DNA of 64,000 nucleotides from Dehalococcoidia bacterium UBA5748 (GCA_002419135.1 DIFM01000041.1:35130-99129); one strand, 5' to 3'. Counted from the first letter of the stretch, positions 17,376-30,785 are shown. The notes: generated from the sequence alone by a model not told the origin. Numbers and translations: made by a program.

Positions 17376-17951
17376 TTAATTCTTAACCCTGTAATAAGCT
17401 CCGTAAAGGCATGCCTTACAATAGGGTACCCCATCTTTATAGACAGCCCTGCCATCCATAACCCTTTCATTACAGACAGAACAAACCGCCCTTTCTTTGG
17501 CGCTGCCCGGCAAGTCATTTTCAGGTATATCCACTTCAACCCTTTCTAAAAGCAGCATTTCTTCGTCCGGCGTTTCGGAAACCAGTTTAAGAACCTCATC
17601 GACAGAAAGTTCCTTGGGGAAATCCTTGGTAGTTGTTACACGATATGCCTCTCCCGTGGATAAACGCACAAATGTGGCTGCAAATTTACCGTAATCCACA
17701 TATTTTAACGACCTTTTACCAAGCCCGCAGCCGCTTACTCCCTGTACGGCATCGGTCATACACCTGTCAGTTTCTACATACACAATTAAATCCTTATGTT
17801 TTTTTACGTATGGGTCGAAACCGAGAACGCGCATTGCCGCTAAGGCGGATTTGGTGCCCATTGCAATTCCGACACATACATGCCCGTGGAATTCCTCAAT
17901 TTTTTTTACAAAATAGTAAAAATCCTCGATTTCTTTGGCGCTTACTGTCAT
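17376..17951 (-). CDS. FmdE-family protein with a C-terminal zinc ribbon
   Basis: 191 aa with the FHGHVCVGIAMG signature of the FmdE domain and a C-terminal CSVCNE...CKAC. Confidence 0.8.
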   Translation of the reverse strand: MTVSAKEIEDFYYFVKKIEEFHGHVCVGIAMGTKSALAAMRVLGFDPYVKKHKDLIVYVETDRCMTDAVQGVSGCGLGKRSLKYVDYGKFAATFVRLSTGEAYRVTTTKDFPKELSVDEVLKLVSETPDEEMLLLERVEVDIPENDLPGSAKERAVCSVCNERVMDGRAVYKDGVPYCKACLYGAYYRVKN

Positions 17952-17988
17952 TAATTAAATCCCCTTTCATTATTAATAATTGATATAT

Positions 17989-18774
17989 CTAATCGATTGG
18001 AACGCAAATCCTGCGGTTTATACCCGAATCCAATTGTAATACTTTTACTTTGATTCCGTAAATATTATACAGGTTTTCCTCGGTTAGCACTTCATCCGGT
18101 GTGCCGAAAGCCAAAAACTTTCCGTTATTCATAATAGCTACTTTATTCGCTACCAAAAAGACATGGTCGGGAAAATGGGAAGTCATAATCGACGGCAAAC
18201 CGTTTTTGGTTATTTCCTTAAGTATACTTAAAAAGCGGTTTTGATTGCCAAAATCCAGGTGTGAAGTAGGCTCATCCAGTAGTAATATGGAAGTTTTTTG
18301 AGCCAGCACGCGAGCAAACATCACCATTTGTCTCTCCCCGCCGCTGATGTTGGTATACGGCCTTTCCCTCAAGTGGTAAATATTCAGTTGTTTTAATGCT
18401 TCGCGGCATATTTCAATATCGTCTTCTGATGGAGTGGACATCAACCCGATATAGGCGGTTCTTCCCATAAGTACGGCATCCAGAACCGTATAAGGAAAGG
18501 TCGGGGCGTGTAATTGCGGTATGTAGCCTATATTTTTGGCGATATCATGGCGTTTCATATGCCCGATATTATGATTATCAATTACTATTGTTCCATCTGT
18601 GATGGTGAGCAAATTGGCAATGCATTTCAATAATGTTGTTTTTCCGCAGCCGTTTGGCCCTAATATACATAGATTATCCCCGTCTGAAAGGCTGAAGCTG
18701 ATTTCGTTGAATACGTCGTCTTTGCTGCCGAAATACTTGAAAGCAGCATTATTAACTTCCAGTTTTATACCCAT
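17989..18774 (-). CDS. ABC transporter ATP-binding protein (FepC/BtuD-like)
   Basis: Walker A GPNGCGKTT, signature ISGGERQ, Walker B ILLLDEPTSHLD. Confidence 0.9.
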   Translation of the reverse strand: MGIKLEVNNAAFKYFGSKDDVFNEISFSLSDGDNLCILGPNGCGKTTLLKCIANLLTITDGTIVIDNHNIGHMKRHDIAKNIGYIPQLHAPTFPYTVLDAVLMGRTAYIGLMSTPSEDDIEICREALKQLNIYHLRERPYTNISGGERQMVMFARVLAQKTSILLLDEPTSHLDFGNQNRFLSILKEITKNGLPSIMTSHFPDHVFLVANKVAIMNNGKFLAFGTPDEVLTEENLYNIYGIKVKVLQLDSGINRRICVPID

Positions 18775-19829
18775 CCCTGTTTCCCCTTTCTTATTAAATA
18801 GAGGAAGAACGGAACTCCTACTATAGCGGTCAGTATGCCGATTGGAATCTCCACGGAGAGGGCGGTACGGCAGATGTTATCGATAATTAACATATATATT
18901 CCGCCGAGAAGCGCCGAAACCGGCAGCAGTTTTTTATTGCAGGGCCCGACCAGCATCCTGCCGATATGCGGCATAACCAGTCCTACCCAGCCTATCATTC
19001 CACTGATAGAAACAGCGGCTGCGGTTATCAAGCTGGCGCATACTATTATAATTGCTCTCAACTGGGTAGTATTTACCCCCAGCGCCTTAGCCTCTTCTTC
19101 TCCCATAGAAAGTACATTAATACGCCATCGGATCAGCATCAGTATTGTAATACCGACAATAATAATGATTGCTACCGGAATCAGGTCTTTCATATATATT
19201 GAATTAAGGCTGCCCATTAACCAGAATACAATTTCAGGCAGTTCATCCTCAGGGTCTGCCATATATTGCATCAAAGAGGTCAGCGCTGAAAACAGGGCTC
19301 CGATTGCCATGCCTGCCAGTACCAGTGTAAGAGTCGGATTGCCACGGACGCGGTTGCTTATCAACCACGAAGTGCCAACAGCTAAAAGGGCCACTCCGAA
19401 AGCGCTGATTTGAATAACCGCCGGATTGCCGGAAATTACGATTGCCAGGGCAGCGCCGAAACCCGCTCCGGAAGTAACACCCAGTATTTGTGGGGAAACC
19501 AGCGGATTGCGAAATAAACCTTGAAAGGATGCTCCGGCAGTCGCCAGTGCTGCGCCAATCAGTATTGCTGCCAGTATACGCGGAAGCCTGATATCAAAGA
19601 TTACCGTTTCCATAATATCCGGCCATGTCGGGGTAATCGGGAATATTTTAGAGAGGAAAATCTGGACTACCTGGGCTGGGGAAATACCGTATCTCCCCAG
19701 CCAAAAGGATATTATGAACAGTAATATCAGAGATATGAATAGGATAAGGGTTATAGTCGGTGTCTTCTTCCAGAAAGAAACCGGCTTTTTAAAATTTTTC
19801 GTACATTTTGTTTCTATTTGAGTAGTCAT
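18765..19829 (-). CDS. FecCD-family ABC permease (iron-chelate/cobalamin type)
   Basis: 354 aa, about 9-10 TM helices, with the FecCD-like conserved stretch RLPRILAAILIGAALATAGASFQGLFRNPLVSP. Overlaps the ATPase gene by 10 nt. Confidence 0.85.
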   Translation of the reverse strand: MTTQIETKCTKNFKKPVSFWKKTPTITLILFISLILLFIISFWLGRYGISPAQVVQIFLSKIFPITPTWPDIMETVIFDIRLPRILAAILIGAALATAGASFQGLFRNPLVSPQILGVTSGAGFGAALAIVISGNPAVIQISAFGVALLAVGTSWLISNRVRGNPTLTLVLAGMAIGALFSALTSLMQYMADPEDELPEIVFWLMGSLNSIYMKDLIPVAIIIIVGITILMLIRWRINVLSMGEEEAKALGVNTTQLRAIIIVCASLITAAAVSISGMIGWVGLVMPHIGRMLVGPCNKKLLPVSALLGGIYMLIIDNICRTALSVEIPIGILTAIVGVPFFLYLIRKGKQGWV

Positions 19830-19865
19830 TTATCTGTCTTTAATTATTTATTAACGCTATCGATA

Positions 19866-21047
19866 TTAAGCAGTATTAATTGTATTCGCCATTAAAGCAT
19901 CATAGTCTGCGTCGGTCAGAGTATAGTGGTAGAAATCCAGATAAAACTCCTGTACTTTTGTCTTTAAGTCAAGGTCTGCGCACTGTTCCGGGTAGAGTGT
20001 TTGAATCATCCAGTAAATACCGACAATTTCGTTCATTCCGGCAGGCCCGTCGAACCATGAGAAGGGATTGTTCGGTCTCAGATAGACTCTTCCGTCTTGA
20101 ACTGCCTGCAAATTAGCCCATATCGGGTCTGAAAGTATCTGGTTATAAAGAGTCGCATCTGCAGCTCTGCCGATGATAATGATATCCGGATTCCATAAAA
20201 GAATCTGCTCCATCGAAACCGAAGTCATGCCGTATCCGGTCTGGTCTTCGACTACAGCTACATTAGACCCACCGCAGAAATCGATAAGCTCGGTATGCTG
20301 AGAACCGGAGGGGTCGGTACTTAGCCCGCCGTCTCCTTCGGCATAGTAAACGGTGACTTTATCTCCTTCGGCAATGTCTGCCATTACCGAAGTAACGTAA
20401 TTTACGGCTTCGGTATAGTAATCGACCAGGTTTTGTGCATGCTCTTCTACGCCGAGAAGCTCTCCCATCTTGAGTATTGATTCAGGCATGGTATCGTAAG
20501 TGTCGAAGACATTGATACTTACAACGGGAATACTGCCGAATTTGTTCTGTCTTTCTTCTACAGTGGCTGCATCACTGGCCAGTATTAAATCTGGCTCCAA
20601 TGATATAAATGTCTCATAATTGCCTGTTGATTTACCATACCAACCGCCAACAACCGGCAGATTTGCATATTGCGTATCGAAATAGTCGGCACCCTCGGTA
20701 CTGTTGGGAAGAAAACACCAACCTCCAAGTTTTTCGGGCGCCAGCATATAAGTAAGTATGCATTCGACTGGTCCGCAACAGAGCACCTTATTAATTGTTG
20801 TTGGGATTACCACGGTTCTGCCGGCGTCATCGACTATTGTTCTGGTAGCCGGTTGGCCGCTGACTGTTTCTGTTGTTGTTTCAGTTACGGTTGATATGTC
20901 GGTAACGGTGGTTGTCTGTGTGGTTGTTTTTGTGGTGGCATTTGTTACTGTAGTTGTCTGTACTTCCTTACACCCGGCGAGAGAAAAGAGCAGAGAAGCG
21001 GAGATAACCAGAGTAAACAGAACAGCGGCTATCTTATTTATCTTCAA
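19866..21047 (-). CDS. Periplasmic-binding-protein-type substrate-binding lipoprotein (BtuF/FhuD class)
   Basis: 393 aa. Signal peptide plus lipobox (LAGC), a Thr-rich linker, then PBP type-2 motifs (PDLILAS, NPDIIIIG). Confidence 0.8.
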   Translation of the reverse strand: MKINKIAAVLFTLVISASLLFSLAGCKEVQTTTVTNATTKTTTQTTTVTDISTVTETTTETVSGQPATRTIVDDAGRTVVIPTTINKVLCCGPVECILTYMLAPEKLGGWCFLPNSTEGADYFDTQYANLPVVGGWYGKSTGNYETFISLEPDLILASDAATVEERQNKFGSIPVVSINVFDTYDTMPESILKMGELLGVEEHAQNLVDYYTEAVNYVTSVMADIAEGDKVTVYYAEGDGGLSTDPSGSQHTELIDFCGGSNVAVVEDQTGYGMTSVSMEQILLWNPDIIIIGRAADATLYNQILSDPIWANLQAVQDGRVYLRPNNPFSWFDGPAGMNEIVGIYWMIQTLYPEQCADLDLKTKVQEFYLDFYHYTLTDADYDALMANTINTA

Positions 21048-21417: not shown

Positions 21418-21446
21418 TTGACGTAACTGAAATATTATTGTAATAT
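21418..21446 (+). promoter_or_regulatory. Candidate sigma-70-type promoter for the hdr-mvh operon
   Basis: TTGACG (21418-21423), a 17-nt spacer, then TAATAT (21441-21446), about 140 nt upstream of hdrC. Recognised by eye only. Confidence 0.4.
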
Positions 21447-21588: not shown

Positions 21589-22149
21589 ATGGAAAAAACT
21601 CAAACTATGAGCTTTTTAAAAGAGGTTAGTCAGGTCCCCGGTGGCGAAGGAGTAAATCTGTGTATTCAGTGTGGCACATGTACCGCGTCATGTCCCAGCG
21701 CCAAAATATGGGAATACACTCCTTCAGAGGTAATCGCTATGGTCAGAGCAGACATGCGCGATGCAGTGCTCTCAAGCAGTTCAATGTGGTGTTGCCTTTC
21801 CTGCTATTCATGTACTGTCCGCTGTCCAAGGGACGTCGAGCCTACAAGTTTGTTTCACGCGCTCGAATCCCTGGCGATAAAGCATGGTTACAAGCCAAAA
21901 AATACAACTACACCGGTAATGTACAACAGTTTTGTGAAGTCCATCAAAAAGAACGGCAGGGTAAGCGAGTTTCAGATGATGATGGGGTATTATCTTTCCA
22001 CCAATCCTTTTAGTGCCTTGGGTATGATGTCGGTGGCATGGAAACTGTTATCGCATGGACGTATGCCGCTTTCAGCGAGAAAGATTAAAGGTAAAAAGGA
22101 CCTTGATAAAATTGTGAAAAAACTGAACGAAGTTAGAGGTGCCCAATGA
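21589..22149 (+). CDS. hdrC: Heterodisulfide reductase subunit C-like
   Basis: 186 aa with two CX2CX2CX3CP motifs (CIQCGTCTASCP, CLSCYSCTVRCP). Overlaps hdrB by 4 nt. Confidence 0.85.
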   Translation: MEKTQTMSFLKEVSQVPGGEGVNLCIQCGTCTASCPSAKIWEYTPSEVIAMVRADMRDAVLSSSSMWCCLSCYSCTVRCPRDVEPTSLFHALESLAIKHGYKPKNTTTPVMYNSFVKSIKKNGRVSEFQMMMGYYLSTNPFSALGMMSVAWKLLSHGRMPLSARKIKGKKDLDKIVKKLNEVRGAQ

Positions 22150-23015
22150 AGAGCTATACATATTTCCCCGGCTGTTCATCGGAAGCTACTGCTGTAGGAT
22201 TGGATGTTTCCAGCAGGTCCATAGCGGAAGCTCTGGGAATGGAATTGAAAGAACTGGAAGACTGGAATTGTTGCGGTTCTACTCCTTACGGCTCACTGGA
22301 TGAGCTGGAAGCAATTGCCGTCGCAGCGCGGAATCTGGCTCTGGCAGAAAAAACGGGGCTGGATTTGGTTACCCCATGCAGTTCGTGTTTTGTCACCCTC
22401 AGTAAAGCCAGAGTACATATGATGGAAAAACCGCAGTTAAAAGCCAAAGTCAATCAAGCTTTAGCGGCTGTGGGATTGGAATATAAGGGTACTGTAAAGG
22501 TAAGGTTATTAATTGAAGCTCTGATGAGCGACATTACTGCGGAGACAATTACTTCCAAAGTTAAAAAGCCCCTTAAGGGATTGAAAGTGGCCCCCTATAC
22601 CGGATGTCAGGAGGTTCGCCCCAGGTTTGGTTTTGACCATCCGGAAAATCCCATTGCGTTGGATACCATAGTAGAAGCAGTTGGCGCTGATGCTGTCCCG
22701 TACCCTTCGAAGAGCAAATGTTGCGGCGGCTCGGCAGTGATAGCAGAAGAAGGCCTTTGTATTGAATTGATGTACAAATTACTGGACGATGCTGCAAAAA
22801 ACGGAGCCGAATGTATCGTTACCCCCTGTCCGCTCTGTCAGATGAACCTTGATGCCTATCAGGCTAAAGTAAACAGCAAATACAATACCAATTTTAATTT
22901 ACCGGTTTTGTTTGTTACACAGCTAATTGGTGTTGCACTCGGATTAAAGCAAGATAAATTGGGCTTGAAAAAGAATATTGTCAACCCGAATAAAGTCCTG
23001 GCGAAATATCTGTAA
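22146..23015 (+). CDS. hdrB: Heterodisulfide reductase subunit B-like
   Basis: 289 aa with two CCG-type cysteine-rich domains (WNCCGS...PCSSC; KCCGGS...PCPLCQ). Confidence 0.85.
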   Translation: MKSYTYFPGCSSEATAVGLDVSSRSIAEALGMELKELEDWNCCGSTPYGSLDELEAIAVAARNLALAEKTGLDLVTPCSSCFVTLSKARVHMMEKPQLKAKVNQALAAVGLEYKGTVKVRLLIEALMSDITAETITSKVKKPLKGLKVAPYTGCQEVRPRFGFDHPENPIALDTIVEAVGADAVPYPSKSKCCGGSAVIAEEGLCIELMYKLLDDAAKNGAECIVTPCPLCQMNLDAYQAKVNSKYNTNFNLPVLFVTQLIGVALGLKQDKLGLKKNIVNPNKVLAKYL

Positions 23016-23029
23016 AGGAGAGCGGAACT

Positions 23030-26000
23030 ATGGATGAAGTAAGAATTGGCGTTTATATATGTGATTGCGGTACCAATATCGCAGCTACAGTGGATACAAA
23101 AAAAGTAACTGAATTTGCCCAGGGATTGGATTCGGTGGTTGTTGCGCGTAATTATAAGTATATGTGTTCTGATCCCGGTCAAAACCTGATAAAAGATGAT
23201 ATCAAGGAAAAGAAGCTTAACAGGGTTGTAGTAGCAGCATGTTCTCCGAGGATGCACGAACCGACTTTCCGTAGAGCTGTGCAGGACGCAGGTATTAATA
23301 AATATTATTTCCAAATGGCAAATATCCGCGAACAGTGTTCATGGGTGCACGAGAATAAAGAAATGGCGACCGAGAAAGCCAAGGCTCTGGTTGAAGCTGC
23401 TGTGCGTCGTGTAGCATATCATGAGTCTTTGCAGACCAGGGAAGTGCCGGTCAACCCGAATGTGCTGGTAGTTGGTGGCGGTATCGCCGGTATTCAAGCA
23501 GCGCTGGAGATTGCCGATGGCGGAAAGAAGGTATATCTGGTGGAAAAAGATCCCAGCATCGGCGGTCATATGGCAATGTTTGATAAAACATTCCCTACAC
23601 TTGATTGTGCGGCCTGTATTCTGACTCCGAAGATGACCACGGTTGGGCAACATCCGAATATCGATCTTTTAAGTTACAGTGAAGTGGAAGAGGTATCCGG
23701 CTTCGTTGGCAATTTTAAAGCAAAGATAAAAAGAAAGGCGCGCTATGTTGATGAAACGAAGTGTACCGGCTGCGGTGAATGCACTAAAGTATGCCCGGTA
23801 CATGTAGATAATGAATTCGATATGGGTTTAAGCCAGCGTAGTGCTGCATACATTCAATCTGCTTATGCGGTACCTAACAAGGCTGTTATCGATAAAAAAG
23901 GTGTATCCCCTTGCCGTGTTGCCTGTCCGGCCGGGGTAAATGCTCATGCCTATATTGCATTGATATCCCAGGGAAAGTTTAAGGAAGCGTTGGAGGTGGT
24001 ACGCAAATCGATTCCGCTGGCAGGGGTAGTCGGTAGGGTCTGCTATCATCCCTGTGAAACTGAATGCGAGAGAGCTACGGTTGATGAAGGACTTATGATA
24101 CGCGACCTGAAGCGTTTTGTCGCTGATTATGAAATGAAAATCGGCAGGGAAAAGGCCGGTCCTGTTGAAATCACAAAAGATGACAGGGTGGCTGTAATCG
24201 GTTCCGGTCCCGCAGGGCTTGCATGCGCTTTTGATTTAATAAAGAACGGCTACCGTGTTACCGTATTCGAAAAGGCAGAGAAAGCCGGTGGTTTGATGAG
24301 GTACGGTATACCGAATTTCAAATTGCCTGAGAATATCGTGGATAACGAAATAGAATGTATCCAAGAAATGGGTGTTGAAATAAAAACCGGCTCTGAGATT
24401 AACGATATTCCCGATCTGTTCAATAAGGGCTATAAAGCAGTATTTTTAGCAACGGGAGCAGGTAAAAATAAGGAACTCGGTATTCCCGGTGAAGAAAACG
24501 ATAATGTGTTCCCGGCTCTTGATTTCCTGAAAAAAATCAATTCGGGCGAAAAGATAGCGGTTGGTAATAAGGTTGTTATTATTGGCGGTGGCAATATTGC
24601 GGTTGAAGCGGCAAGGGTTGCATGGAGATTGGGAGCAAATGATGTTACGATTGTTTACAAAAAATCCGAAGCCGAAATACCAGCCAGTGACAGTGAAGTT
24701 GAAGAAGCTGAACAAGAGGGCATTAAATTCAAATACGACACTACCGCCGATGAAATCGTAGTGCGCGATGGTAAAGTAACGGGTGTTAAATGTGTCAGCG
24801 AAGCTAAAGGGCAAAAATCCGATCAATTCGTGATAGATGCCGATAATGTAATAAATGCAGTCGGACAGGCGGTCGAAAAAACCGAACTGTCGAAAGAACT
24901 GGCGTTTACCGATTTGGGTTATCTGGAAGTCGATCCGGTTACACTTGAAACTAATGTTTCAGGGGTATTTGCCGGTGGTGAAGTAGTGGCCGGACAATTG
25001 GATGTGATTGCATCTGTTGCTGCAGGTAAAGCCGGTGCTGAAAGTATTGACAGATATTTAAGTGGCAACGATATGCGTGAAGGACGCTTCGAGCAGATGC
25101 CTCGTGTAACTAAGGTTAACAAGGATAAAGTCAAAACAAAGACCAGAGTAGTTATGTCTAAATTGGAAACCTCGAAACGAAATGATAATTTCGATGAGGT
25201 TGAACTCGGATTTGACGAGAGCCTTGCTATAGAAGAAGCCAAACGCTGTTTGAATTGCGCTGTTTGTTCTGAATGTATGTTATGCGTAAAGGCATGCGAA
25301 GCCGAAGCAATTGTTCATGACGTCAAAGAACAGACGCTCGAAGTCGAAGTAGGTTCTATTATTGTGGCTACCGGAATGAAGCAATTCGACCCTGAGGTAA
25401 TGTACACTTATGGATATAACCGCTTCGATGATGTTTTAACAGGTCTTGAGTTCGAAAGGCTTTCAAATGCGTCGGGTCCTACCGATGGTGTTGTCGTTAA
25501 AAAGAATGGAGAGAAACCAAAGAGTGTAGCTATACTGCACTGTGTAGGAAGTCGTGATGAAAACTACCACAAGTATTGCTCTCGTGTATGTTGTATGTAT
25601 TCATTAAAGTATGCCCATCTTTTGAAGGAAAAATTACCCGAAGCCGATGTTTATCAGTTGTACATAGATATGCGCTGCGCCGGTTCTGGATATGAAGAAT
25701 TCTACCTCAGATTACAGGAAGAGGGTGTCAATTTTATAAGAGGACGAGGAGCAGAAATCACGAATACGGCTGAAACGCCGGAAGAGAAAGATAAACTTAT
25801 TGTTCATTGTGAGGACACTCTGATACGTAAGAAAAGAAGGTTGCCTGTAGATATGGTAATCCTGAGCTGTGCTCTTGAGCCGAGCGATGGTGCCGAACAA
25901 ATTGGGAGAGTTCTTTCAATCAGTAAAAAAGCGGATGGATTCTTCCTTGAGAAACACCCCAAACTGGACCCGGTATCAACAATGACCGATGGAATATTCA

Positions 26001-26341
26001 TAGCGGGTTGCTGCCAGGGGCCGAAGGATATCCCCGATACGGTGGCTCAGGCTTCGGCGGCTGCCGCCAGAGCGCTGGCTATGATAAGTAACAATAAAGT
26101 CGAAATCGATGGGGCTACATCGGAGATCATTGAAGAATTATGTTCCGGATGTCGTATCTGTAATAACCTGTGTCCGTACAGTGCGATTACATTTAATGAA
26201 ACTAAAAAGGTATCCGAAATCAATCCTGTTCTCTGTAAGGGGTGCGGGGTTTGCGTATCTGCCTGTCCTAGCGACGCTATAACGGGCAATCACTTTACCA
26301 ATAAACAGATAATGGCAGAAATTGAGGGGGTGTTAGCATGA
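23030..26341 (+). CDS. hdrA: HdrA-like flavoprotein carrying an inserted GltD/NfnB-like NAD(P)H-binding module (1103 aa)
   Basis: HdrA hallmarks: N-terminal [11 protein letters not shown] site [36 protein letters not shown], and C-terminal [12 protein letters not shown] / [12 protein letters not shown]. Between them (about aa 290-700) is a GltD-like block: [10 protein letters not shown]...[31 protein letters not shown]...[31 protein letters not shown]. Confidence 0.85.
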
Positions 26342-26757
26342 GTTTTGAACCTAAGATACTAGGTATCCTCTGTAATTGGTGCTCTTATTCGGGTGCTGAT
26401 TTGGCAGGGACTTCACGAAAAAAGTATCCTGCAAATATCAGGATAGTGAGGGTGATGTGCAGTGGCAGGGTTGACCCTGTATTCATCCTGAAAGCCCTTC
26501 AATCGGGGGCTGACGGAGTATTAATTCTTGGATGTCATCCCGGGGATTGCCATTATACTTCAGGTAATTATAAGGCCTTGCGGCGCATGGAAATGTTAAA
26601 AAAATTGGCGGAGCAGATGGGGATCGAAGACGATCGCATTCGCCTTGATTGGGTAGCGGCATCCGAAGGTGATAGATTTGCAGAGATAATAAAAGATATG
26701 ACAGAAAAAATTAAACAGTTGGGGCCTTTCCCCAGGGATGGAGGAGATAATGGCTAA
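26338..26757 (+). CDS. mvhD: MvhD-like (methyl-viologen-reducing hydrogenase delta subunit) protein
   Basis: 139 aa with [21 protein letters not shown] and [10 protein letters not shown] motifs. ATGA overlap with hdrA. Confidence 0.85.
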
Positions 26758-27706
26758 ACCAAAGGTGGCGTTATATTGGGCTGCCAGTTGCGGGGGTTGC
26801 GATATCGGCCTTCTGGAAATTGGTGAAAACCTGCTCAAGTTGATTGAGGCGGTGGACATTGTATTTTGGCCGGTTGCCATTGACGTTAAATATAAGGACG
26901 TTGAAGCTATGGAGGATGGGAGTATTGATGTCTGCCTGTTCAATGGTGCGATCCGCAGCTCTGAACAGGAGCACATTGCAAAGCTTTTGAGGGCAAAATC
27001 AAAGGTTATGATAGCTTACGGAGCCTGTGCTTATCAGGGAGGTATTCCGGGTCTGGCCAATATGTATAACAGGGAAATGATAATGGAGAGAGCATATCTG
27101 GAGACACCTTCTACTGAGAACCCCGATAAAGTTCTACCCCAGACGAGCTATCAGGCTCCGGAAGGAGAGCTTACTTTACCATTGCTTTTTGATACGGTTA
27201 AAACACTGGCACAGACAGTAAAGGTTGAATATATAATTCCCGGTTGTCCACCCGAAGCGCAAACAACATGGATGGCTCTTGAAGCATTGATAACCGGTCA
27301 AATGCCTCCTGTGGGAACGGTTATTACCGGTAACGCTAAGGCTGTTTGTAACGAGTGCCCGCGTAAGCGTGATGTTAAGAAAGTAAAGAAATTTTATAGG
27401 ACCTATGAAATTGATCCGGACCCCGAGATATGTCTTTTAGAACAGGGACTTCCGTGTGCCGGAATTGCTACTAAGGGCGGCTGCGACGCCAGATGCCCCA
27501 AAGCAGGGATGCCCTGTACCGGTTGTTATGGCCCGGTGGATGGTGTAATTGACCAGGGGGCGCATTTTATGAATGCTATAGCTTCTGTTATCGATTCAAA
27601 TGACCCGAATGAAATCGGAAAAATCATTGCAGATATCAGAGATCCTGCCGGTACATTCTATCGCTACAGTTTACCTGATTCCATATTAAGGAGGGCCAGA
27701 GTTTAA
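26750..27706 (+). CDS. mvhG: [NiFe]-hydrogenase small subunit, MvhG-like (group 3c type)
   Basis: N-terminal [15 protein letters not shown] and C-terminal Cys clusters ([30 protein letters not shown]). The start is taken at the ATG preceded by GGAGGAG; the track start is at 26738. Confidence 0.8.
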
Positions 27707-29163
27707 TGAGAAAGATTAGTATAGACCCGATTACAAGGCTTGAAGGGCATGGAAAAATCGAGATATTCCTTAATGATGAGGGAACGGTAGAGAACAGCTA
27801 TTTTCAGGTACCTGAACTGCGTGGCTTTGAAAAGTTTTCGGAAGGAAGATTAGCTGAAGATATGCCTCAAATTACACAGAGGGTTTGCGGCGTATGCCCG
27901 GAGGCGCATCATCTGGCATCGACCAAAACGCTGGATGCACTTTTCCATGTAACCCCGACCAGCACTGCCAGGAAACTGCGAGAACTGTTATACAATGCAT
28001 TTTATGTAACCGACCATACTACACACTTTTATATCCTGGGAGGTCCTGATTTTGTTATGGGTCCGGATGCGCCGGTCGCAGAACGCAATATTATCGGCGT
28101 TATCGGTAAGGTGGGGCTGGAACTGGGTGGCGCGGTCATCAATACCAGAAAAAAATGCCATCACTTAATCCAGGAGTTGGGTGGTAAGGCGGTACATCCG
28201 GTTTTTGGGTTACCGGGAGGTGTCAGCAGGGGCATAAACGAAGAGGAACGAAAGGAATTTGAACAAATTGCCAGGGATTCTCTTGAGTTTGCCAAGCTTT
28301 CCTTGAAAGTATTCGATGATATAGTTTTGGCTAATAAAGAATATGTCGATATGATTGTCAGCGATGCCTATACTCATAGGACCTACTCTATGGGACTGGT
28401 GGATGAGAATAATAAAGTAAATTACTATGATGGAAAGATAAGAGTTGTTGATCCGGATGGAAAAGAATTTGCTAAATTCGAGCCTAAAGATTACCTTGAG
28501 CATATAGCCGAACATGTCGAACCTTGGAGCTATATTAAGTTCCCGTATCTGAAGAAGGTCGGATGGAAAGGTTTCGTGGACGGAAAAGACAGCGGTGTAT
28601 TCCGTGTTGCTCCGATGGCTCGTCTTAACGCTTCGGATGGTATGGCAACGCCGGTGGCACAGGAAGCATACGAAAAGATGTATGATACGCTTGGCGGGAA
28701 ACCGGTGCATCATACTCTTGCTATTCATTGGGCAAGACTTGTTGAAATGGTACAGGCTGCCGAAACAATGATTGCTCTGTGTACCGATCCTGAGATTACC
28801 GGCGATGATTTAAGAAATATTCCTACGGCTACTCCTGATGAGGGAGTTGGGATAATCGAAGCTCCCAGGGGCACTTTAATTCATCATTACCAAACAGATG
28901 AAAAGGGCATAATTAAGAAGGCTAATTTAATTGTAGCAACAGTTAATAATGGAGCAGCGGTTAATATGTCCATTAATAAAGCAGCCAGGGCTCTCATCCA
29001 ACCGGATAAAGAAATAACGGAAGGATTGCTCAACCGTATCGAGATGGCATGGAGACCGTATGACTTATGTCTGGCTTGTGCCAGCCATAATTTACCGGGG
29101 CATCCGGCAATGCCGATGTATGTTTATAATAAAAATAAACAAATAGTAAAAAGTTGGGAATAG
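27706..29163 (+). CDS. mvhA: [NiFe]-hydrogenase large subunit, MvhA-like (group 3c type)
   Basis: 485 aa with N-terminal RLEGHGKI and RVCGVCPEAH, and the C-terminal DLCLACASH motif followed by a 24-aa extension. Confidence 0.85.
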   Translation: MRKISIDPITRLEGHGKIEIFLNDEGTVENSYFQVPELRGFEKFSEGRLAEDMPQITQRVCGVCPEAHHLASTKTLDALFHVTPTSTARKLRELLYNAFYVTDHTTHFYILGGPDFVMGPDAPVAERNIIGVIGKVGLELGGAVINTRKKCHHLIQELGGKAVHPVFGLPGGVSRGINEEERKEFEQIARDSLEFAKLSLKVFDDIVLANKEYVDMIVSDAYTHRTYSMGLVDENNKVNYYDGKIRVVDPDGKEFAKFEPKDYLEHIAEHVEPWSYIKFPYLKKVGWKGFVDGKDSGVFRVAPMARLNASDGMATPVAQEAYEKMYDTLGGKPVHHTLAIHWARLVEMVQAAETMIALCTDPEITGDDLRNIPTATPDEGVGIIEAPRGTLIHHYQTDEKGIIKKANLIVATVNNGAAVNMSINKAARALIQPDKEITEGLLNRIEMAWRPYDLCLACASHNLPGHPAMPMYVYNKNKQIVKSWE

Positions 29164-29176
29164 ATTACATAACATT

Positions 29177-29638
29177 TTGAAAACGCTTATTTTAGGATTG
29201 GGTAATCCATATCTCTGCGATGACAGCGCCGGCTTGAAGGTAGTCAAGCAGCTAGAAAAGAGGTTATCCAATCCCGATGTTTCTTTAAATGAGACCAGCC
29301 TGGCAGGTATTAATCTACTTGATTACCTGGTAGGCTACGACAAGGCTATCATTATCGATGCTATCACATCACCGAATGGTAAACCGGGTAGTATTTATCG
29401 CTTGACTCCCGAGGAATTCGATACTACTTGTCATACTACTTCCAGCCATGACATCGGTGTCATTGCCGCCATTGAGCTTGGCAGGAGGTTGGAGTTATCG
29501 ATGCCGAAAACAATAGAGATTATCGGTATAGAGGCACTTGACGTCAGCACTCTTACAGAGGAATGTTCCCCTGAGGTGGAGGCTGCAATTCCAATGGCAG
29601 CGGATATGATAGTAGAGGAAGTAAATGTAACGCCTTGA
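29177..29638 (+). CDS. Hydrogenase maturation endopeptidase (HybD/FrhD family)
   Basis: 153 aa with ILGLGNPYLCDDSAG, IIIDAI and TSSHDIG, matching the metal-ligand pattern of the family. TTG start. Confidence 0.8.
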   Translation: MKTLILGLGNPYLCDDSAGLKVVKQLEKRLSNPDVSLNETSLAGINLLDYLVGYDKAIIIDAITSPNGKPGSIYRLTPEEFDTTCHTTSSHDIGVIAAIELGRRLELSMPKTIEIIGIEALDVSTLTEECSPEVEAAIPMAADMIVEEVNVTP

Positions 29639-29708: not shown

Positions 29709-30785
29709 ATGTGTATTTTATCGCAAAGCAACACACTTCAGATTAATCAGAGCACAGGCCAATACCTCAGAATTGAGCAATCGAACCTGTTGTCTATGCC
29801 ATTGTCAGAACTTAATTCATTTATCAGAGAAATTGAAAACAGCGAGTTGTTTGTTAAATATTTTAGGGAAAACAAAATTGTCCGCTATCAGAGATTTGAT
29901 AATTCAGATACATATATAAGCCATTTAAAATTTGATGAATCGGCTCTTGTTGATAATCAGCCTCCTGAAATAGATTCATTGCTGGAAAACAATCAAAACA
30001 CGATTGAATACATTCGTAAAATCGGTCCGGATAATTTTAAGAAATTTTTCATGGTACCGGAGGAAGGTCAATCCGAAGATGAAATTGCATTTGCCTGTGG
30101 CATACCTATAGCGTATGTTAAGGATATCAATAATCTGGTAAATGATATGGCGGTACTGGATGAGTTCCATTCTACATCCTCTCTTAACATTAATGATGTC
30201 AATTATACTAAAGTCGCCGCTATTGATAGAGAAGGAGACGGATTCAGGGTAAGCTATTATTTAAACTCTCTGGCAAGAGGGCGGTATCTGATAAATTATG
30301 AAATGCTTGAAGAGCATATAGTCCGGAAGTGCGTCAATGACGATGAAATAAAAAAAATAAGAGCCCTTCTTAAAAAGCTGGAGATGATAAATGTCTGTAA
30401 ACAGACATTGCATATCATTTTAATTAATTTAATCCACAAACAATGGGCTTTTATTGATTCGGGGAATTTCAAGGATTTATTGCCGCTTAGTCAAAAAGAA
30501 TTGGCTTTTCAACTGGGAATCAATCCGGCTACCTTAAGCCGTGCCATTAAGTTGAGAACAATAGATATTCCTTGTGGGCGGGAGATAACTCTAAAAAGTC
30601 TGTTTCCGAATCCAAGAAAATTCCGGATGGCGGTCCTGAAAAAGGTTTTACAGTCAGAAAATAATCTTATATCAGATAGAGTAATACAATCTAAACTATC
30701 CGGAAAATATGGAGTAAACATCTCAAGGCGTACAGTTGCAAATATGAGGAGGGAATTGAAAATACCTGCCGGGGGAGCTAGATAA
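29709..30785 (+). CDS. rpoN: Short sigma-54 (RpoN)-like factor, 358 aa
   Basis: C-terminal RpoN box ISRRTVANMRRELKIPAGGAR. HTH and flanking region CKQTLHIILINLIHKQWAFIDSG...LLPLSQKELAFQLGINPATLSRAIK...LKSLF. Gln/Leu-rich N-terminus LQINQSTGQYLRIEQSNLLSMPLSELNSFIREIENSE. Confidence 0.75.
   Translation: MCILSQSNTLQINQSTGQYLRIEQSNLLSMPLSELNSFIREIENSELFVKYFRENKIVRYQRFDNSDTYISHLKFDESALVDNQPPEIDSLLENNQNTIEYIRKIGPDNFKKFFMVPEEGQSEDEIAFACGIPIAYVKDINNLVNDMAVLDEFHSTSSLNINDVNYTKVAAIDREGDGFRVSYYLNSLARGRYLINYEMLEEHIVRKCVNDDEIKKIRALLKKLEMINVCKQTLHIILINLIHKQWAFIDSGNFKDLLPLSQKELAFQLGINPATLSRAIKLRTIDIPCGREITLKSLFPNPRKFRMAVLKKVLQSENNLISDRVIQSKLSGKYGVNISRRTVANMRRELKIPAGGAR

What the first reader, a model, noticed from the sequence alone, without database searches (positions are those of the whole stretch)
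23897..25130. HdrA interrupted by a complete GltD/NfnB-like NAD(P)H module
Seen in the sequence: the 1103-aa HdrA-like ORF has HdrA motifs at both ends ([29 protein letters not shown], two C-terminal CX2CX2CX3CP). It also has an internal block of about 400 aa that carries [55 protein letters not shown] and [17 protein letters not shown]. These are the Fe-S, FAD and NAD(P)H signatures of the glutamate synthase small subunit, NfnB and SudA. Established knowledge: methanogen HdrA is roughly 650 aa and bifurcates electrons from MvhADG. As far as I recall, large HdrA homologues with an NfnB-like module have been noted in sulfate reducers and syntrophs (called HdrL), but that needs verifying. Inference: this complex could couple H2, NAD(P)H, ferredoxin and a disulfide in one machine.
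Basis: partly seen in the sequence, partly recalled or inferred. Interest (0 to 1): 0.6.

Follow-up and report, generated by a model that had tools for sequence, protein, structure and literature searches.

The report
HdrA with built-in NADPH module
A hydrogenase-linked electron-splitting enzyme subunit (HdrA) of an uncultured Dehalococcoidales bacterium really does carry a 456-residue NADP(H)-binding flavoprotein module spliced into its ferredoxin domain, but this design has already been described (HdrL, "type III HdrA"), so it is a new member of a known, still uncharacterised kind.

Summary
ORF 23030-26341 (+) encodes 1103 aa. Residues 1-289 and 746-1103 form a complete HdrA, contiguous with methanogen HdrA structures. 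Residues 290-745 (nt 23897-25264, not 25130) are a GltD/NfnL-type Fe-S/FAD/NAD(P)H module.

It is not an assembly artefact. At least 119 protein clusters and 22 genome loci keep the same junctions, mostly within hdrC-hdrB-hdrA-mvhD-mvhG-mvhA-hycI operons.

Two corrections:
- The module is circularly permuted. The segment that begins canonical NfnB/GltD (NF.EV...RCL.C) lies at the end of the insert, so both ends ligate one cluster next to HdrA's second ferredoxin motif.
- It resembles the non-bifurcating NADPH-input domains of StnC and NfnA (Bfu-type Nfn), not bifurcating NfnB. The proximal-cluster ligand is an invariant Lys, and no NfnA/NfnS partner is encoded.

Most likely mechanism (inferred): NADP(H) is wired to HdrA's low-potential output, replacing or joining ferredoxin, in an H2 / NADP(H) / HdrB-substrate complex.

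The architecture is published: HdrL (2009), ANME-1 HdrA-NfnB (2022) and type III HdrA with mvhADG (2025). Novelty: new member of a known kind. Interest is about 0.3.

In passing: Ignavibacteria-type loci split HdrA in the same domain and encode NuoE/NuoF-like proteins there.

The parts
21418..21446 (+). candidate sigma-70-type promoter (TTGACG-17-TAATAT) upstream of hdrC
   Evidence: Consensus scan, and sequence. This is only a pattern match. No sigma-54 site lies upstream of hdrC.
21589..22149 (+). hdrC-like gene (186 aa, two 4Fe-4S motifs)
   Evidence: Pfam Fer4_8 and related families. NCBIfam HdrC TIGR03290 scores 88.8 bits, below its cut-off. It overlaps hdrB by 4 nt.
22146..23015 (+). hdrB-like gene (289 aa, two CCG domains)
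   Evidence: Pfam CCG, 2 stretches, E 1.1e-27. NCBIfam HdrB TIGR03288 scores 224 bits and SdhE-type 242 bits, both below their cut-offs.
23030..26341 (+). long hdrA (1103 aa + stop): HdrA with the inserted NADP(H) module
23030..23896 (+). HdrA part 1 (aa 1-289): N-terminal 4-Cys cluster domain (C11, C13, C46, C71), the first half of the thioredoxin-reductase-like FAD domain (GGGIAG at 149-154; C193/C196), and the first motif of the inserted ferredoxin domain (C245, C248, C251, C255) with its loop up to ...[10 protein letters not shown]
   Evidence: Aligns to residues 9-298 of 8rvu HdrA. All listed Cys are invariant in 133 long-form sequences.
23897..25264 (+). inserted module (aa 290-745), a circularly permuted GltD/NfnL-type NADP(H):Fe-S flavoprotein
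   Evidence: PRK12771 485 bits, aa 284-776. Solved relatives: 9bov_A E 7e-105, 9n5u_A, 8oh5_C, 4ylf_B. Foldseek: 4ylf_B TM 0.74.
23897..24184 (+). Fe-S sub-domain of the insert (aa 290-385): C295, C299, C338, C342, C346 and the Lys ligand candidate K361
   Evidence: Pfam Fer4_20 profile positions 30-110. The Cys residues and K361 are invariant in 133/133 sequences. K361 aligns with StnC K170 and with the NfnB Glu ligand (PMC10482914).
24185..25069 (+). FAD- and NAD(P)H-binding Rossmann domains of the insert (aa 386-680): GSGPAG 391-396, IPNFKLP 427-433, GGGNIA 519-524, [11 protein letters not shown] 542-552
   Evidence: Pfam Pyr_redox_2 aa 386-657 and Pyr_redox 514-587. Aligned to NfnB residues 45-462. 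The family consensus is YRRSRAEMPA.
25070..25153 (+). linker (aa 681-708), poorly conserved, modelled without regular secondary structure
   Evidence: AF2 DSSP shows no element between 679 and 713, with pLDDT 53-63. The tail has the highest dN/dS.
25154..25264 (+). permuted first segment of the GltD/NfnB Fe-S domain (aa 709-745: ...[21 protein letters not shown]740LNC743AV)
   Evidence: Aligns to NfnB residues 8-43 (weak on its own: 14.6 bits). Matches Fer4_20 profile positions 1-37, E 1.2e-5. It is contiguous in the alignments to StnC, NfnA and 9bov. C740 and C743 are invariant.
25265..26341 (+). HdrA part 2 (aa 746-1103 + stop): second motif of the inserted ferredoxin domain (C746, C749, C752, C756), the rest of the FAD domain with cluster Cys C838, C850, C854, C855 and K860, and the C-terminal 2x[4Fe-4S] ferredoxin domain
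   Evidence: Aligns to residues 301-653 of 8rvu HdrA. K860 aligns with the Lys said to contact FAD N5 in 5ODC (PMC6405883).
26338..26757 (+). mvhD (139 aa, [2Fe-2S] adaptor)
   Evidence: Pfam FlpD E 3e-57. Overlaps hdrA by 4 nt.
26738..27706 (+). mvhG (322 aa), [NiFe]-hydrogenase small subunit
   Evidence: Pfam Oxidored_q6; NCBIfam VhuG 246 bits.
27706..29163 (+). mvhA (485 aa), [NiFe]-hydrogenase large subunit, Cys type (RVCGVCPEAHH ... DLCLACASH)
   Evidence: Pfam NiFeSe_Hases; NCBIfam VhuA 392 bits; sequence.
29177..29638 (+). hydrogenase maturation protease (HycI family)
   Evidence: Pfam HycI E 3e-17. Syntenic in related loci.

Best explanation
The ORF is a genuine, complete HdrA. Its inserted ferredoxin domain carries a 456-aa, circularly permuted GltD/NfnL-type flavoprotein module (two [4Fe-4S], FAD, NADP(H) site).

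Shown by sequence:
- The chain leaves HdrA after ...[10 protein letters not shown](289) and enters the module in the middle of its first Cys motif (C295, C299).
- It runs through the Fe-S, FAD and NAD(P)H domains and a linker.
- It returns through the segment that begins canonical NfnB/GltD (NF.EV...RC740..C743).
- It continues without a gap into HdrA's second ferredoxin motif (C746...C756).
- The module's two ends therefore meet at one cluster, directly beside an HdrA cluster.

Inferred mechanism:
1. In the HdrC-HdrB-HdrA(long)-MvhD-MvhG-MvhA complex, H2 is oxidised at MvhA. Electrons reach the bifurcating FAD of HdrA through MvhG and MvhD.
2. The high-potential electron goes through HdrC to HdrB and an unidentified disulfide-type acceptor.
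3. The low-potential electron goes through the two ferredoxin-domain clusters and the module's two clusters to the module's FAD.
4. That FAD does not bifurcate. It collects two electrons and reduces NADP+.

NADP(H) thus takes the place of, or is added to, free ferredoxin. This would allow NADPH formation from H2 at low H2 pressure, driven by the exergonic reduction at HdrB. The reaction should be reversible.
For: Architecture:
- HdrA profiles and solved HdrA chains cover aa 1-289 and 746-1103 contiguously.
- All Fe-S ligands, the FAD motif and K860 are conserved.
- Insert boundaries come from alignment with short forms and methanogen HdrA.

Permutation:
- Fer4_20 profile positions 30-110 lie at aa 293-370, and positions 1-37 at aa 717-757.
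- NfnB residues 45-462 come first, then residues 8-43.
- StnC, NfnA and 9bov_A show the same order.

Non-bifurcating NADPH-port type:
- K361 is invariant in 133/133 sequences, at the position of StnC K170 and the Lys-ligated A7 cluster of NfnA. NfnB has Glu there (PMC10482914; PMC11829005).
- No NfnA/NfnS-like gene is in the operon.

NADP(H) preference:
- The second Rossmann motif is GGGN(A/I)A.
- The loop is YRRS in about 126/133 relatives and YKKS here, as in NADPH-specific NfnB, StnC and NfnA.

Position on the low-potential output:
- The inserted ferredoxin domain is described as the ferredoxin-reducing, low-potential output in HdrA and in BamE (PMC12054007; bioRxiv 10.64898/2026.04.10.717634).

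Module is functional:
- dN/dS is about 0.1.

Operon:
- Overlapping or near-abutting genes.
- The same layout occurs in 14 long-form loci that reach mvhA.

Fold:
- Foldseek matches 5odc_A (TM 0.64) and 4ylf_B (TM 0.74).
Against: - No biochemical data exist for any member, so the direction of electron flow is inferred.
- In every solved relative with the Lys-ligated cluster (StnC, NfnA), the module serves as the entry for NADPH as the mid-potential donor. This fits the rival model (NADPH donor, H2 product) at least as well.
- Sending a roughly -500 mV electron to NADP+ wastes energy unless H2 is scarce.
- Cluster-to-cluster distances could not be measured.
- Ferredoxin binding cannot be excluded.
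- The window's own sequence has Lys instead of Arg at three cofactor-proximal positions (431, 544, 545), so its nucleotide preference is less certain than that of the family.
- The HdrB substrate in Dehalococcoidales is unknown.
Confidence: 0.5

Rival explanations
1. NAD(P)H is the mid-potential donor. The module feeds single electrons from NAD(P)H through the ferredoxin-domain clusters into HdrA's bifurcating FAD. The FAD then sends one electron to HdrBC (disulfide) and the other, through MvhD/G/A, to protons. The complex would be an NAD(P)H-driven, disulfide-assisted H2-evolving enzyme, or the reverse confurcation. This is the model proposed for archaeal type III HdrA.
For: - PMC12054007 proposes exactly this for the Bathyarchaeota type III hdrA-mvhADG cluster.
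- In the solved homologues closest to the insert (StnC 8oh5_C; NfnA 9bov_A and 9n5u_A), the Lys-ligated module is the NADPH entry that relays single electrons to a remote bifurcation site (PMC10482914, PMC11829005).
- K361 is invariant.
Against: - It requires the inserted ferredoxin domain, described as the low-potential output in HdrA and BamE structures (PMC12054007; 10.64898/2026.04.10.717634), to act as the input, and the MvhD path to act as the low-potential output.
- At the low H2 pressures of digesters and sediments, NADPH can reduce protons without coupling.
- It needs a stoichiometric supply of oxidised HdrB substrate.
Confidence: 0.28
2. The insert is a true NfnB-type second bifurcation site. 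The complex would have two bifurcating flavins and handle four substrates (H2, NADPH, ferredoxin, disulfide). This follows the first reader's inference and the speculation for ANME-1 HdrA-NfnB fusions.
For: - The insert is about 36% identical to T. maritima NfnB with the same fold.
- The Arg equivalent to NfnB R187 is kept in 127/133 relatives.
- PMC9012536 raises the idea.
Against: - The proximal-cluster ligand is Lys in 133/133 sequences, not the Glu of NfnB.
- No NfnA/NfnS-type [2Fe-2S]/FAD partner in the operon could provide a second exit from the flavin.
- StnC keeps the same Arg yet does not bifurcate (PMC10482914).
- In the window the Arg is replaced by Lys (K431).
Confidence: 0.1
3. 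The module is a relic with only a structural role, or is decaying. The complex would work like an ordinary Mvh-Hdr with ferredoxin.
For: - In the window's clade the insert diverges 2-4 times faster than the HdrA core. For example, WIN-L013 is 93/89% identical in the core but 74% in the insert. L006 is 92/91% against 64% (matrix; 62% by tblastn).
- Three cofactor-proximal Arg are Lys here.
Against: - dN/dS of the FAD/NADP part is 0.09-0.14, far below 1.
- All Cys ligands, both glycine motifs and K361 are invariant across 133 sequences from several phyla.
- Arg to Lys is conservative and fits a 41% GC genome.
Confidence: 0.05
4. Assembly or annotation artefact: two genes merged, or a chimeric contig.
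For: None found.
Against: - The module lies inside HdrA with two in-frame junctions.
- Identical junctions occur in 119 protein clusters and 22 genome loci from independent projects and several phyla.
- There is no composition break.
Confidence: 0.01

Closest known systems
Type III HdrA of methane/alkane-metabolising archaea (class A10 of Bathyarchaeota with mvhADG; A9 of ANME-1), Microbiol Spectr 2025, PMC12054007
   Same: - HdrA of the type I pattern with a GltD domain inserted at the inserted ferredoxin domain.
- The Bathyarchaeota cluster also contains mvhADG.
- The authors suggest the insert blocks or repurposes the ferredoxin site for a pyridine nucleotide.
   Different: - Archaeal; only nine sequences were reported.
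- The authors infer NAD(H) from a GXGXXG motif. The bacterial family here has GGGNAA plus YRRS (YKKS in the window), which points to NADP(H).
- The passages I read do not mention the permutation or the Lys ligand.
- I did not compare sequences directly, so a common origin of the two inserts is untested.
ANME-1 HdrA9/10/11 with an NfnB-like insertion (Chadwick et al. 2022, PMC9012536)
   Same: [quoted passage not shown]
- About 45% identity to T. maritima NfnB.
- NADPH is suggested as the substrate.
   Different: - ANME-1 gene clusters have other partners.
- The authors consider a second bifurcation site. Here the Lys ligand and the missing NfnA-type partner argue against that.
HdrL of Desulfobacterium autotrophicum and Syntrophobacter fumaroxidans (PMC2702500, PMC5947623)
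   Same: - A large HdrA homologue described as a heterodisulfide reductase/glutamate synthase fusion with NAD(P)H-binding site(s).
- Always followed by mvhD.
- A 1478-aa database representative of this size class (P0131, organism unknown) shows the same two junction sequences (...INKRGTSPC... and ...[15 protein letters not shown]...).
   Different: - In the 1400-1500-aa class, going by P0131 alone (organism unknown), the module-bearing HdrA unit lacks the N-terminal cluster domain and is fused to a second complete HdrA.
- The Syntrophobacter locus has no mvhA, and neither HdrL paper links HdrL to a complete MvhADG hydrogenase.
- I could not retrieve the named HdrL sequences, so the identity of P0131 with 'HdrL' is by architecture only.
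NfnL/GltD-like NADPH domain of StnC (8OH5) and of NfnA in Bfu-type NfnABC (9BOV, 9N5U)
   Same: - Best solved matches to the insert (E 7e-105 to 7e-87).
- Same permuted order, with the RCL.C segment last.
- Same Lys at the proximal-cluster ligand position.
- Same YRR(S/T)-type NADPH loop in the family.
- The module is itself inserted into a host Fe-S protein (between the 2Fe-2S domain and the NuoG/Fdh-like part).
- The FAD is non-bifurcating and relays single electrons.
   Different: - The host is a NuoG/Fdh-like subunit of a NuoEF-type (Bfu) bifurcating enzyme, not HdrA.
- StnC Cys114 is Ala here.
NfnB/NfnL of NfnAB (NfnSL), 4YLF and 5JCA
   Same: - Same fold (Foldseek TM 0.72-0.74).
- Two [4Fe-4S], FAD and an NADPH site.
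   Different: - Linear, not permuted, topology.
- Glu ligand on the proximal cluster.
- Needs the NfnA/NfnS partner.
- The FAD bifurcates.
MvhADG-HdrABC of hydrogenotrophic methanogens (5ODC) and Elp-Hdr (8RVU)
   Same: - All subunits are present in one operon.
- The HdrA parts have very strong sequence matches (E about 1e-220), with every cluster ligand and the FAD-contacting Lys conserved.
   Different: - No insert; ferredoxin is the low-potential acceptor and CoM-S-S-CoB the high-potential one.
- The organism here is a bacterium, in which a CoM-S-S-CoB heterodisulfide substrate is not expected (general knowledge; only this 64-kb window could be examined).
- NCBIfam equivalog cut-offs for HdrA/B/C and VhuA/G are all missed.
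MetFV-HdrABC-MvhD of Moorella thermoacetica
   Same: An HdrA-containing complex that oxidises NADH and is listed with '2 FAD in HdrA' (PMC5861303, Table 1). It is a possible biochemical precedent for a pyridine-nucleotide-reactive HdrA.
   Different: - The partner is methylene-THF reductase, not a hydrogenase.
- I did not see the Moorella HdrA sequence, so whether it has this insert is unverified.

Membership tests
HdrA (flavin-based electron-bifurcating heterodisulfide reductase subunit A) | N-terminal domain with a 4-Cys [4Fe-4S] site | tested here: met
   C11, C13, C46 and C71 align with the Cys of solved HdrA and are invariant in 133 sequences.
HdrA (flavin-based electron-bifurcating heterodisulfide reductase subunit A) | Thioredoxin-reductase-like FAD domain with GxGxxG, the CC-containing cluster site and the Lys that contacts FAD N5 | tested here: met
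   GGGIAG 149-154; C838, C850, C854, C855; K860 aligns with the Lys five residues after the CC pair in 8rvu (Lys409 of 5ODC per PMC6405883). All are invariant.
HdrA (flavin-based electron-bifurcating heterodisulfide reductase subunit A) | Inserted ferredoxin domain (2 motifs) and C-terminal 2x[4Fe-4S] ferredoxin domain | tested here: met
   C245/248/251/255 and C746/749/752/756 are separated by the insert. C1038-1048 and C1069-1079 form the C-terminal domain.
HdrA (flavin-based electron-bifurcating heterodisulfide reductase subunit A) | Curated NCBIfam HdrA model cut-off | tested here: not met
   HdrA2 855.8 bits against cut-off 1100. HdrA 651 bits against 1400. These models are tuned to methanogen orthologues, and the match is split by the insert.
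HdrA (flavin-based electron-bifurcating heterodisulfide reductase subunit A) | Genomic association with hdrB (CCG), hdrC and mvhD | tested here: met
HdrA (flavin-based electron-bifurcating heterodisulfide reductase subunit A) | Electron bifurcation activity | not testable with these tools
   Requires enzymology.
HdrL / type III HdrA (HdrA with inserted GltD-type NAD(P)H module) | GltD/NfnB-family Fe-S + FAD + NAD(P)H module interrupting the inserted ferredoxin domain of HdrA | tested here: met
   Insert aa 290-745 lies between ferredoxin motif 1 plus its loop and ferredoxin motif 2. The definitions come from PMC2702500, PMC9012536 and PMC12054007.
HdrL / type III HdrA (HdrA with inserted GltD-type NAD(P)H module) | mvhD immediately downstream | tested here: met
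   mvhD 26338-26757 overlaps the hdrA stop.
HdrL / type III HdrA (HdrA with inserted GltD-type NAD(P)H module) | Common descent of the insert with the named HdrL / archaeal type III sequences | tested here: inconclusive
   The same junction motifs appear in a 1478-aa representative, P0131.
NfnB/NfnL (bifurcating subunit of NfnAB/NfnSL) | Glu as fourth ligand of the FAD-proximal [4Fe-4S] | tested here: not met
   The aligned position is K361, in 133/133 sequences.
NfnB/NfnL (bifurcating subunit of NfnAB/NfnSL) | Arg hydrogen-bonded to FAD N5 (R187 in T. maritima, R201 in P. furiosus) | tested here: inconclusive
   Lys (K431) in the window; Arg in 127/133 relatives. StnC keeps the Arg without bifurcating (PMC10482914).
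NfnB/NfnL (bifurcating subunit of NfnAB/NfnSL) | Partner subunit NfnA/NfnS ([2Fe-2S] + FAD, PyrK-like) encoded alongside | tested here: not met
   None in the operon. The only PyrK-like domain in the window belongs to the separate hydrogenase gene 34612-36954.
NfnB/NfnL (bifurcating subunit of NfnAB/NfnSL) | Linear topology (NF.EV..RCL.C segment at the N-terminus) | tested here: not met
   That segment is at aa 709-745, after the Rossmann domains.
GltD (glutamate synthase small subunit) | Curated family score and a GltB partner | tested here: not met
   TIGR01318 228 bits against cut-off 483. TIGR01317 192 bits against 448. TIGR01316 309 bits against 472. No gltB is in the window.
NfnL-like NADPH-input module of Bfu-type enzymes (StnC, NfnA of NfnABC); NCBIfam PRK12771/PRK12814 type | Permuted order with the RCL.C segment C-terminal, module embedded in a host Fe-S protein | tested here: met
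   Contiguous alignment of aa 293-750 to StnC 102-575 and 9bov_A 102-575. Fer4_20 is permuted.
NfnL-like NADPH-input module of Bfu-type enzymes (StnC, NfnA of NfnABC); NCBIfam PRK12771/PRK12814 type | Lys at the proximal-cluster ligand position | tested here: met
   K361 aligns with StnC K170 and is invariant. Actual ligation was not observed.
NfnL-like NADPH-input module of Bfu-type enzymes (StnC, NfnA of NfnABC); NCBIfam PRK12771/PRK12814 type | NADPH-type loop YRR(S/T) after the second Rossmann strand | tested here: inconclusive
   YKKS in the window; YRRS in about 126/133 relatives. Specificity was not measured.
NfnL-like NADPH-input module of Bfu-type enzymes (StnC, NfnA of NfnABC); NCBIfam PRK12771/PRK12814 type | PRK12771 curated cut-off | tested here: not met
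   485.2 bits against cut-off 516. This is a near miss, and relatives P0129 and P0131 pass.
MvhADG-type (group 3c) [NiFe]-hydrogenase | MvhD/G/A genes adjacent to hdrA, with NiFe-binding Cys motifs in the large subunit | tested here: met
   Pfam FlpD, Oxidored_q6 and NiFeSe_Hases. VhuA/VhuG equivalog cut-offs are not reached.

The most novel reading that the evidence does not exclude
The ferredoxin-output site of hydrogenase-linked HdrA may be an evolutionary docking hot-spot where pyridine-nucleotide modules have repeatedly replaced soluble ferredoxin.

- In Dehalococcoidia, Zixibacteria, Latescibacterota, Gemmatimonadota and Coatesbacteria the site holds a self-closing (circularly permuted) GltD cassette. 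Its two ends share one cluster, so it can be spliced into any Fe-S loop.
- In Ignavibacteria-type loci HdrA is split in the same domain. Its second half is fused to a NuoG-like N-terminus, next to NuoE/NuoF-like genes.

If so, many non-methanogens would possess ferredoxin-independent H2:NAD(P)+ oxidoreductases powered by reduction of an unknown HdrB substrate. Long and short forms would interconvert by gain and loss of the cassette.
Probability: 0.3. Interest if true: 0.6.

Novelty: new member of a known kind. Interest (0 to 1): 0.3.

Why it matters
No HdrA with a built-in NAD(P)H module has been characterised biochemically or structurally. Yet the design is widespread in uncultured anaerobes of digesters, aquifers and sediments.

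If NADP(H) is wired to the low-potential output of HdrA, these organisms could make NADPH from H2 at concentrations too low for direct reduction, or dispose of NADPH as H2. Either route bypasses ferredoxin, which changes how their energy budgets and H2 thresholds should be modelled.

The Dehalococcoidales operon here is compact and complete: hdrCB, long hdrA, mvhDGA and the maturation protease, all Cys rather than Sec. That makes it a practical candidate for heterologous expression.

The permuted topology and the invariant Lys are concrete, testable handles on whether the second flavin bifurcates.

Tried and rejected
- **Artefact or merged genes:** rejected, because the junctions are conserved across assemblies and composition is flat.
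- **Sigma-54 control of the hdr operon:** a TGGCAC-N5-TTGCW search gave no more hits than shuffles and none upstream of hdrC. The best site (34090-34105) lies before the second hydrogenase cluster.
- **Clue to the HdrB substrate:** no conserved DsrC/TusE-like or other thiol-carrier gene lies near the operon, in the window or in related loci.
- **AF2 model:** the full protein gave only moderate confidence (pLDDT 72, pTM 0.57). It served only for fold matching.
- **NJ tree of the HdrA core:** shallow clades are well supported. Support values for the deep, rooted clades came out as about 1% because of how rooted bipartitions were counted, and should be ignored. I therefore claim only that long and short forms are interleaved, not a number of events.
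- **dS saturation:** dS is saturated for most pairs. Only WIN-L001 gives a clean dN/dS.
- **Named sequences:** D. autotrophicum HdrL, ANME-1 and Bathyarchaeota type III, and Moorella HdrA sequences could not be fetched. Comparison with them rests on published descriptions and on the architecture-matched representative P0131.
- **Papers with nothing on this architecture:** the deep-sea Chloroflexi paper (PMC5736913), the HdrA evolution preprint (10.1101/2024.09.26.615249, restricted to 640-775 aa) and PMC7325909.

Full report
**What is there.** The window is about 41% GC. Judging from the closest relatives of this operon and its neighbours, it comes from an uncultured Dehalococcoidales bacterium. 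HdrA is 94% identical to MAG AS06rmzACSIP_226 and 96% to UBA5627 over the shared part, and the flanking genes are syntenic. Around the finding lies a tight plus-strand operon:

| Gene | Coordinates |
|---|---|
| hdrC | 21589-22149 |
| hdrB | 22146-23015 |
| long hdrA | 23030-26341 |
| mvhD | 26338-26757 |
| mvhG | 26738-27706 |
| mvhA | 27706-29163 |
| HycI-type protease | 29177-29638 |

Four of the six gene junctions overlap (by 1-20 nt); the other two are 14-nt and 13-nt gaps. The surrounding genes are ordinary chromosomal ones: EF-P, topoisomerase I, DprA, DXS, PGK, TIM.

**Checking the observation.**
- NCBIfam HdrA models match aa 5-301 (profile 1-302) and aa 739-1102 (profile 294-651).
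- GltD-family models match aa 284-776. The best is PRK12771, 485 bits, against profile positions 39-544 of 566.
- Pfam Pyr_redox_2 (158 bits) and Fer4_20 (69 bits) are far above their thresholds.
- Against solved structures, HdrA of Methanothermobacter (8RVU) and Methanothermococcus (5ODC) align at E about 1e-220 in two pieces. Query 1-289 pairs with chain 9-298, and query 746-1102 with chain 301-653.

The internal block therefore replaces about two residues of a methanogen HdrA. Alignment with short bacterial HdrAs and the methanogen sequence places the junctions after ...[10 protein letters not shown](289) and before C746. The insert is aa 290-745, nt 23897-25264.

**Not an artefact.** 119 of the 120 best database clusters (61-94% identity, from NCBI, JGI, ENA and Logan assemblies) are 1100-1140 aa and cover the whole query. 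A scan of one genome per species found 22 loci with N-part, insert and C-part; one ORF was confirmed in the 19 whose full sequence could be extracted. They occur in Dehalococcoidales/Dehalococcoidia and other Chloroflexota, and in Latescibacterota, Gemmatimonadota, Coatesbacteria, Zixibacteria and a deltaproteobacterial MAG. Where the contig is long enough (14 loci), the order is the same: hdrC-hdrB-hdrA-mvhD-mvhG-mvhA-hycI. GC content and skew show no break.

**Anatomy of the host.** All Fe-S ligands of HdrA are present and invariant in 133 long-form sequences:
- the N-terminal 4-Cys site: C11, C13, C46, C71
- C193/C196 (C196 is selenocysteine in some relatives)
- the two ferredoxin-domain motifs: C245-255 and C746-756
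- the CC-containing site: C838, C850, C854, C855
- the two C-terminal motifs

K860 aligns with the Lys reported to contact N5 of the bifurcating FAD in 5ODC (PMC6405883). HdrB has two CCG domains, HdrC has two cluster motifs, and MvhA has both NiFe Cys motifs. The machine looks complete.

**Anatomy of the insert.** It is not a linear copy of GltD/NfnB.
- HMMER aligns aa 293-680 to T. maritima NfnB residues 45-462.
- It aligns aa 709-744 to NfnB residues 8-43, the NF.EV...EA.RCL.C segment that opens canonical GltD/NfnB. This second match is weak on its own (14.6 bits).
- Pfam confirms the order independently. The head of the insert matches Fer4_20 profile positions 30-110, and the tail peptide matches positions 1-37 at E 1.2e-5.

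The module is therefore circularly permuted. The canonical first motif, C-x2-C-x4-C-x3-CP, is opened after its second Cys. The chain enters at C295/C299 and leaves at C740/C743. These four Cys, together with C338, C342 and C346, account for the seven Cys of the two NfnB-type clusters.

The exit runs straight into HdrA's motif 2 (RC740-LN-C743-AV-C746-SE-C749-ML-C752-VKA-C756). One module cluster and one HdrA cluster are thus bound by consecutive residues. From this I infer, but cannot measure, a short electron-transfer distance.

The same permuted order is found in the best solved relatives: NfnA of Caldicellulosiruptor NfnABC (9BOV, E 7e-105), NfnA of Thermococcus NfnABC (9N5U) and StnC of Sporomusa (8OH5). 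In StnC, the module (aa 102-565) is likewise embedded between the N-terminal [2Fe-2S] segment (aa 1-101) and the rest of the NuoG-like part (PMC10482914). A search of 1.8 billion representatives shows the module in many architectures of 480-1530 aa. These include free-standing PRK12771-type proteins, DPD-like fusions and several HdrA fusions.

**Which kind of GltD-family module?** Three diagnostics were read from the alignments and checked across 133 relatives.
1. The fourth ligand of the FAD-proximal cluster is Glu in bifurcating NfnB and Lys in StnC (K170) and NfnA. Here it is K361, invariant in 133/133.
2. The Arg that contacts FAD N5 in NfnB (R187/R201) is Arg in 127/133 relatives but Lys (K431) in the window's small clade. 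StnC keeps this Arg yet does not bifurcate, so this feature does not discriminate.
3. The NADPH 2'-phosphate loop is YRRS in about 126/133 relatives and YKKS here. The second glycine motif is GGGN(A/I)A.

All solved relatives are NADPH enzymes. No NfnA/NfnS-like partner is encoded in the operon. Together these features place the insert with the non-bifurcating NADPH-input modules of Stn/NfnABC. There, NADPH reduces the FAD, and electrons pass singly through the Lys-ligated cluster to a remote bifurcation site (PMC10482914, PMC11829005).

**Is the module functional?** In the window's clade the insert diverges faster than the core.

| Pair | N part | C part | Insert |
|---|---|---|---|
| WIN-L013 | 93% | 89% | 74% |
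| WIN-L006 | 92% | 91% | 64% (matrix; 62% by tblastn) |

However, dN/dS of its FAD/NADP part is 0.09-0.14, against 0.01-0.05 for the core (only WIN-L001 is unsaturated). That indicates weaker but clear purifying selection. The three Arg-to-Lys changes are confined to 6 of 133 sequences and fit a low-GC genome.

**Mechanism.** Two structure-based sources describe the inserted ferredoxin domain of HdrA-type proteins as the low-potential output of the bifurcating FAD. It reduces ferredoxin in HdrA and feeds BamBC in class II benzoyl-CoA reductase (PMC12054007; bioRxiv 10.64898/2026.04.10.717634). The module is welded to exactly that domain.

My best reading (confidence about 0.5) is as follows:
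1. H2 electrons arrive through MvhA, MvhG and MvhD at the HdrA FAD.
2. One electron goes to HdrC/HdrB and an unknown acceptor.
3. The other passes four clusters to the module FAD, which reduces NADP+.

At 1-10 Pa H2 the H+/H2 couple (about -265 to -295 mV) lies above the cellular NADP+/NADPH couple. The coupling would therefore be useful there (thermodynamic reasoning from established potentials, not tested).

The main rival (about 0.28) is the model published for archaeal type III HdrA. In it, NAD(P)H is the mid-potential donor and H2 the low-potential product. The role of the module in Stn/NfnABC supports this rival. A second bifurcation site (about 0.1) is disfavoured by the Lys ligand and the missing partner.

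**Comparison with what is known.** The architecture is already in the literature:
- HdrL, a 'heterodisulfide reductase/glutamate synthase fusion', always followed by mvhD (PMC2702500, 2009; PMC5947623, 2018)
[quoted passage not shown] A 1478-aa HdrL-sized representative (P0131) shows the same junction sequences, on an HdrA unit that lacks the N-terminal domain and is fused to a second HdrA.

This analysis adds the following:
- the Dehalococcoidales and multi-phylum bacterial distribution together with a full MvhADG
- the exact boundaries
- the permuted topology
- the invariant Lys and the NADPH-type loop
- evidence that long and short forms are interleaved in the HdrA-core tree. L027 (long) groups with Anaerolineae short forms at 100% bootstrap. 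L011 (long, Sec) groups with the short Sec forms L025, L026 and L060 at 59%

The interleaving implies repeated gain, loss or recombination of the cassette.

**Verdict.** This is a new member of a known, biochemically uncharacterised kind. Interest is about 0.3.

**Seen in passing.** Eleven loci (Ignavibacteria, a Desulfobacterales MAG and others) have HdrA split inside the same ferredoxin domain. A 285-aa protein ends after ferredoxin motif 1. NuoE-like and NuoF-like genes follow; in the Ignavibacteria-type loci (six of the eleven) a HydS-like gene also lies between the halves. PHP and HATPase genes were confirmed by Pfam only in L034. Last comes a 588-aa protein in which a NuoG-like N-terminus is fused to the rest of HdrA, followed by mvhDGA. 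This is a different pyridine-nucleotide module at the same site, and it may be the more novel lead.

Noticed in passing
L034:895-9971 (also L033, L037, L038, L040, L042, L044, L045, L052, L065, L074): In Ignavibacteria-type and some other loci, the Mvh-linked HdrA is split inside the inserted ferredoxin domain. A 285-aa N-part ends after ferredoxin motif 1. NuoE-like and NuoF-like genes follow; in the Ignavibacteria-type loci (six of the eleven) a HydS-like gene also lies between the halves. PHP and HATPase genes were confirmed by Pfam only in L034. Last comes a 588-aa protein with a NuoG-like 2Fe-2S/4Fe-4S N-terminus fused to the HdrA C-part, followed by mvhD/G/A. A Bfu/NuoEF-type NADH module therefore occupies the site where the window has the GltD cassette. 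I found no description of this in the literature searches I ran.
   Followed up: partly
window 29709-34068: Directly downstream of the operon lie three regulatory genes. The first is a 358-aa protein with only a sigma-54 DNA-binding domain. The second is a [FeFe]-hydrogenase-like (Fe_hyd_lg_C + FeS) sensor histidine kinase (30786-32735). The third is an NtrC-type sigma-54 activator (32719-34068). The trio is syntenic with the hdr-mvh operon in several related Dehalococcoidales loci. This may be an H2- or redox-sensing regulatory unit.
   Followed up: partly
window 34090-34105 and 34612-38977: A sigma-54-like -24/-12 site (TGGCATAATAATTGCA, one mismatch) precedes a small ORF and a second [NiFe]-hydrogenase cluster. 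The first gene of that cluster (780 aa) fuses a response-regulator receiver domain to a Fer4_22 domain plus a PyrK-like FAD/NAD/[2Fe-2S] diaphorase part. Small (36951-37694) and large (37691-38977) subunits follow. A receiver domain on a hydrogenase diaphorase subunit is unusual.
   Followed up: no
window aa 196 of HdrA (nt 23615-23617); L011, L025, L026, L060: The second Cys of FPTLDC..C is an in-frame TGA (selenocysteine) in one long-form and three short-form relatives (FPTLDCSAUIL). The window has Cys. ORF callers truncate those genes at 194 aa.
   Followed up: partly
window 24185-25264 vs L001-L006, L013: Within the window's own clade the insert evolves 2-4 times faster than the HdrA core. 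L006 has a core 91-92% identical to the window but an insert only 64% identical (matrix; 62% by tblastn), about as far as inserts of the next clade. This suggests recombination or a rate shift. Only this clade (6/133) has Lys for Arg at positions 431, 544 and 545.
   Followed up: partly
L022, L023, L024 (short HdrA, Dehalococcoidia): These short forms are 73-79% identical to the window in the HdrA N-terminal part (72-75% in the C-terminal part). They lack the insert but have an expanded, atypical second ferredoxin motif (C-x12-C-x2-C-x11-C). Other bacterial short forms have C-x7-C-x2-C-x3-C. Long forms and methanogens share C-x2-C-x2-C-x3-C.
   Followed up: no
L028:2133-7011, L029:8001-12867: Two hdrA copies lie in tandem upstream of mvhDGA in two Dehalococcoidia/Chloroflexi MAGs.
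   Followed up: no
window 17376-21047 (- strand): Divergent from the hdr operon is an FecCD/ABC-type uptake system: binding protein 19866-21047, permease and ATPase. An FmdE-domain/zinc-finger protein (17376-17951) is next to it. The arrangement is conserved in the closest relatives. The substrate is unknown.
   Followed up: no
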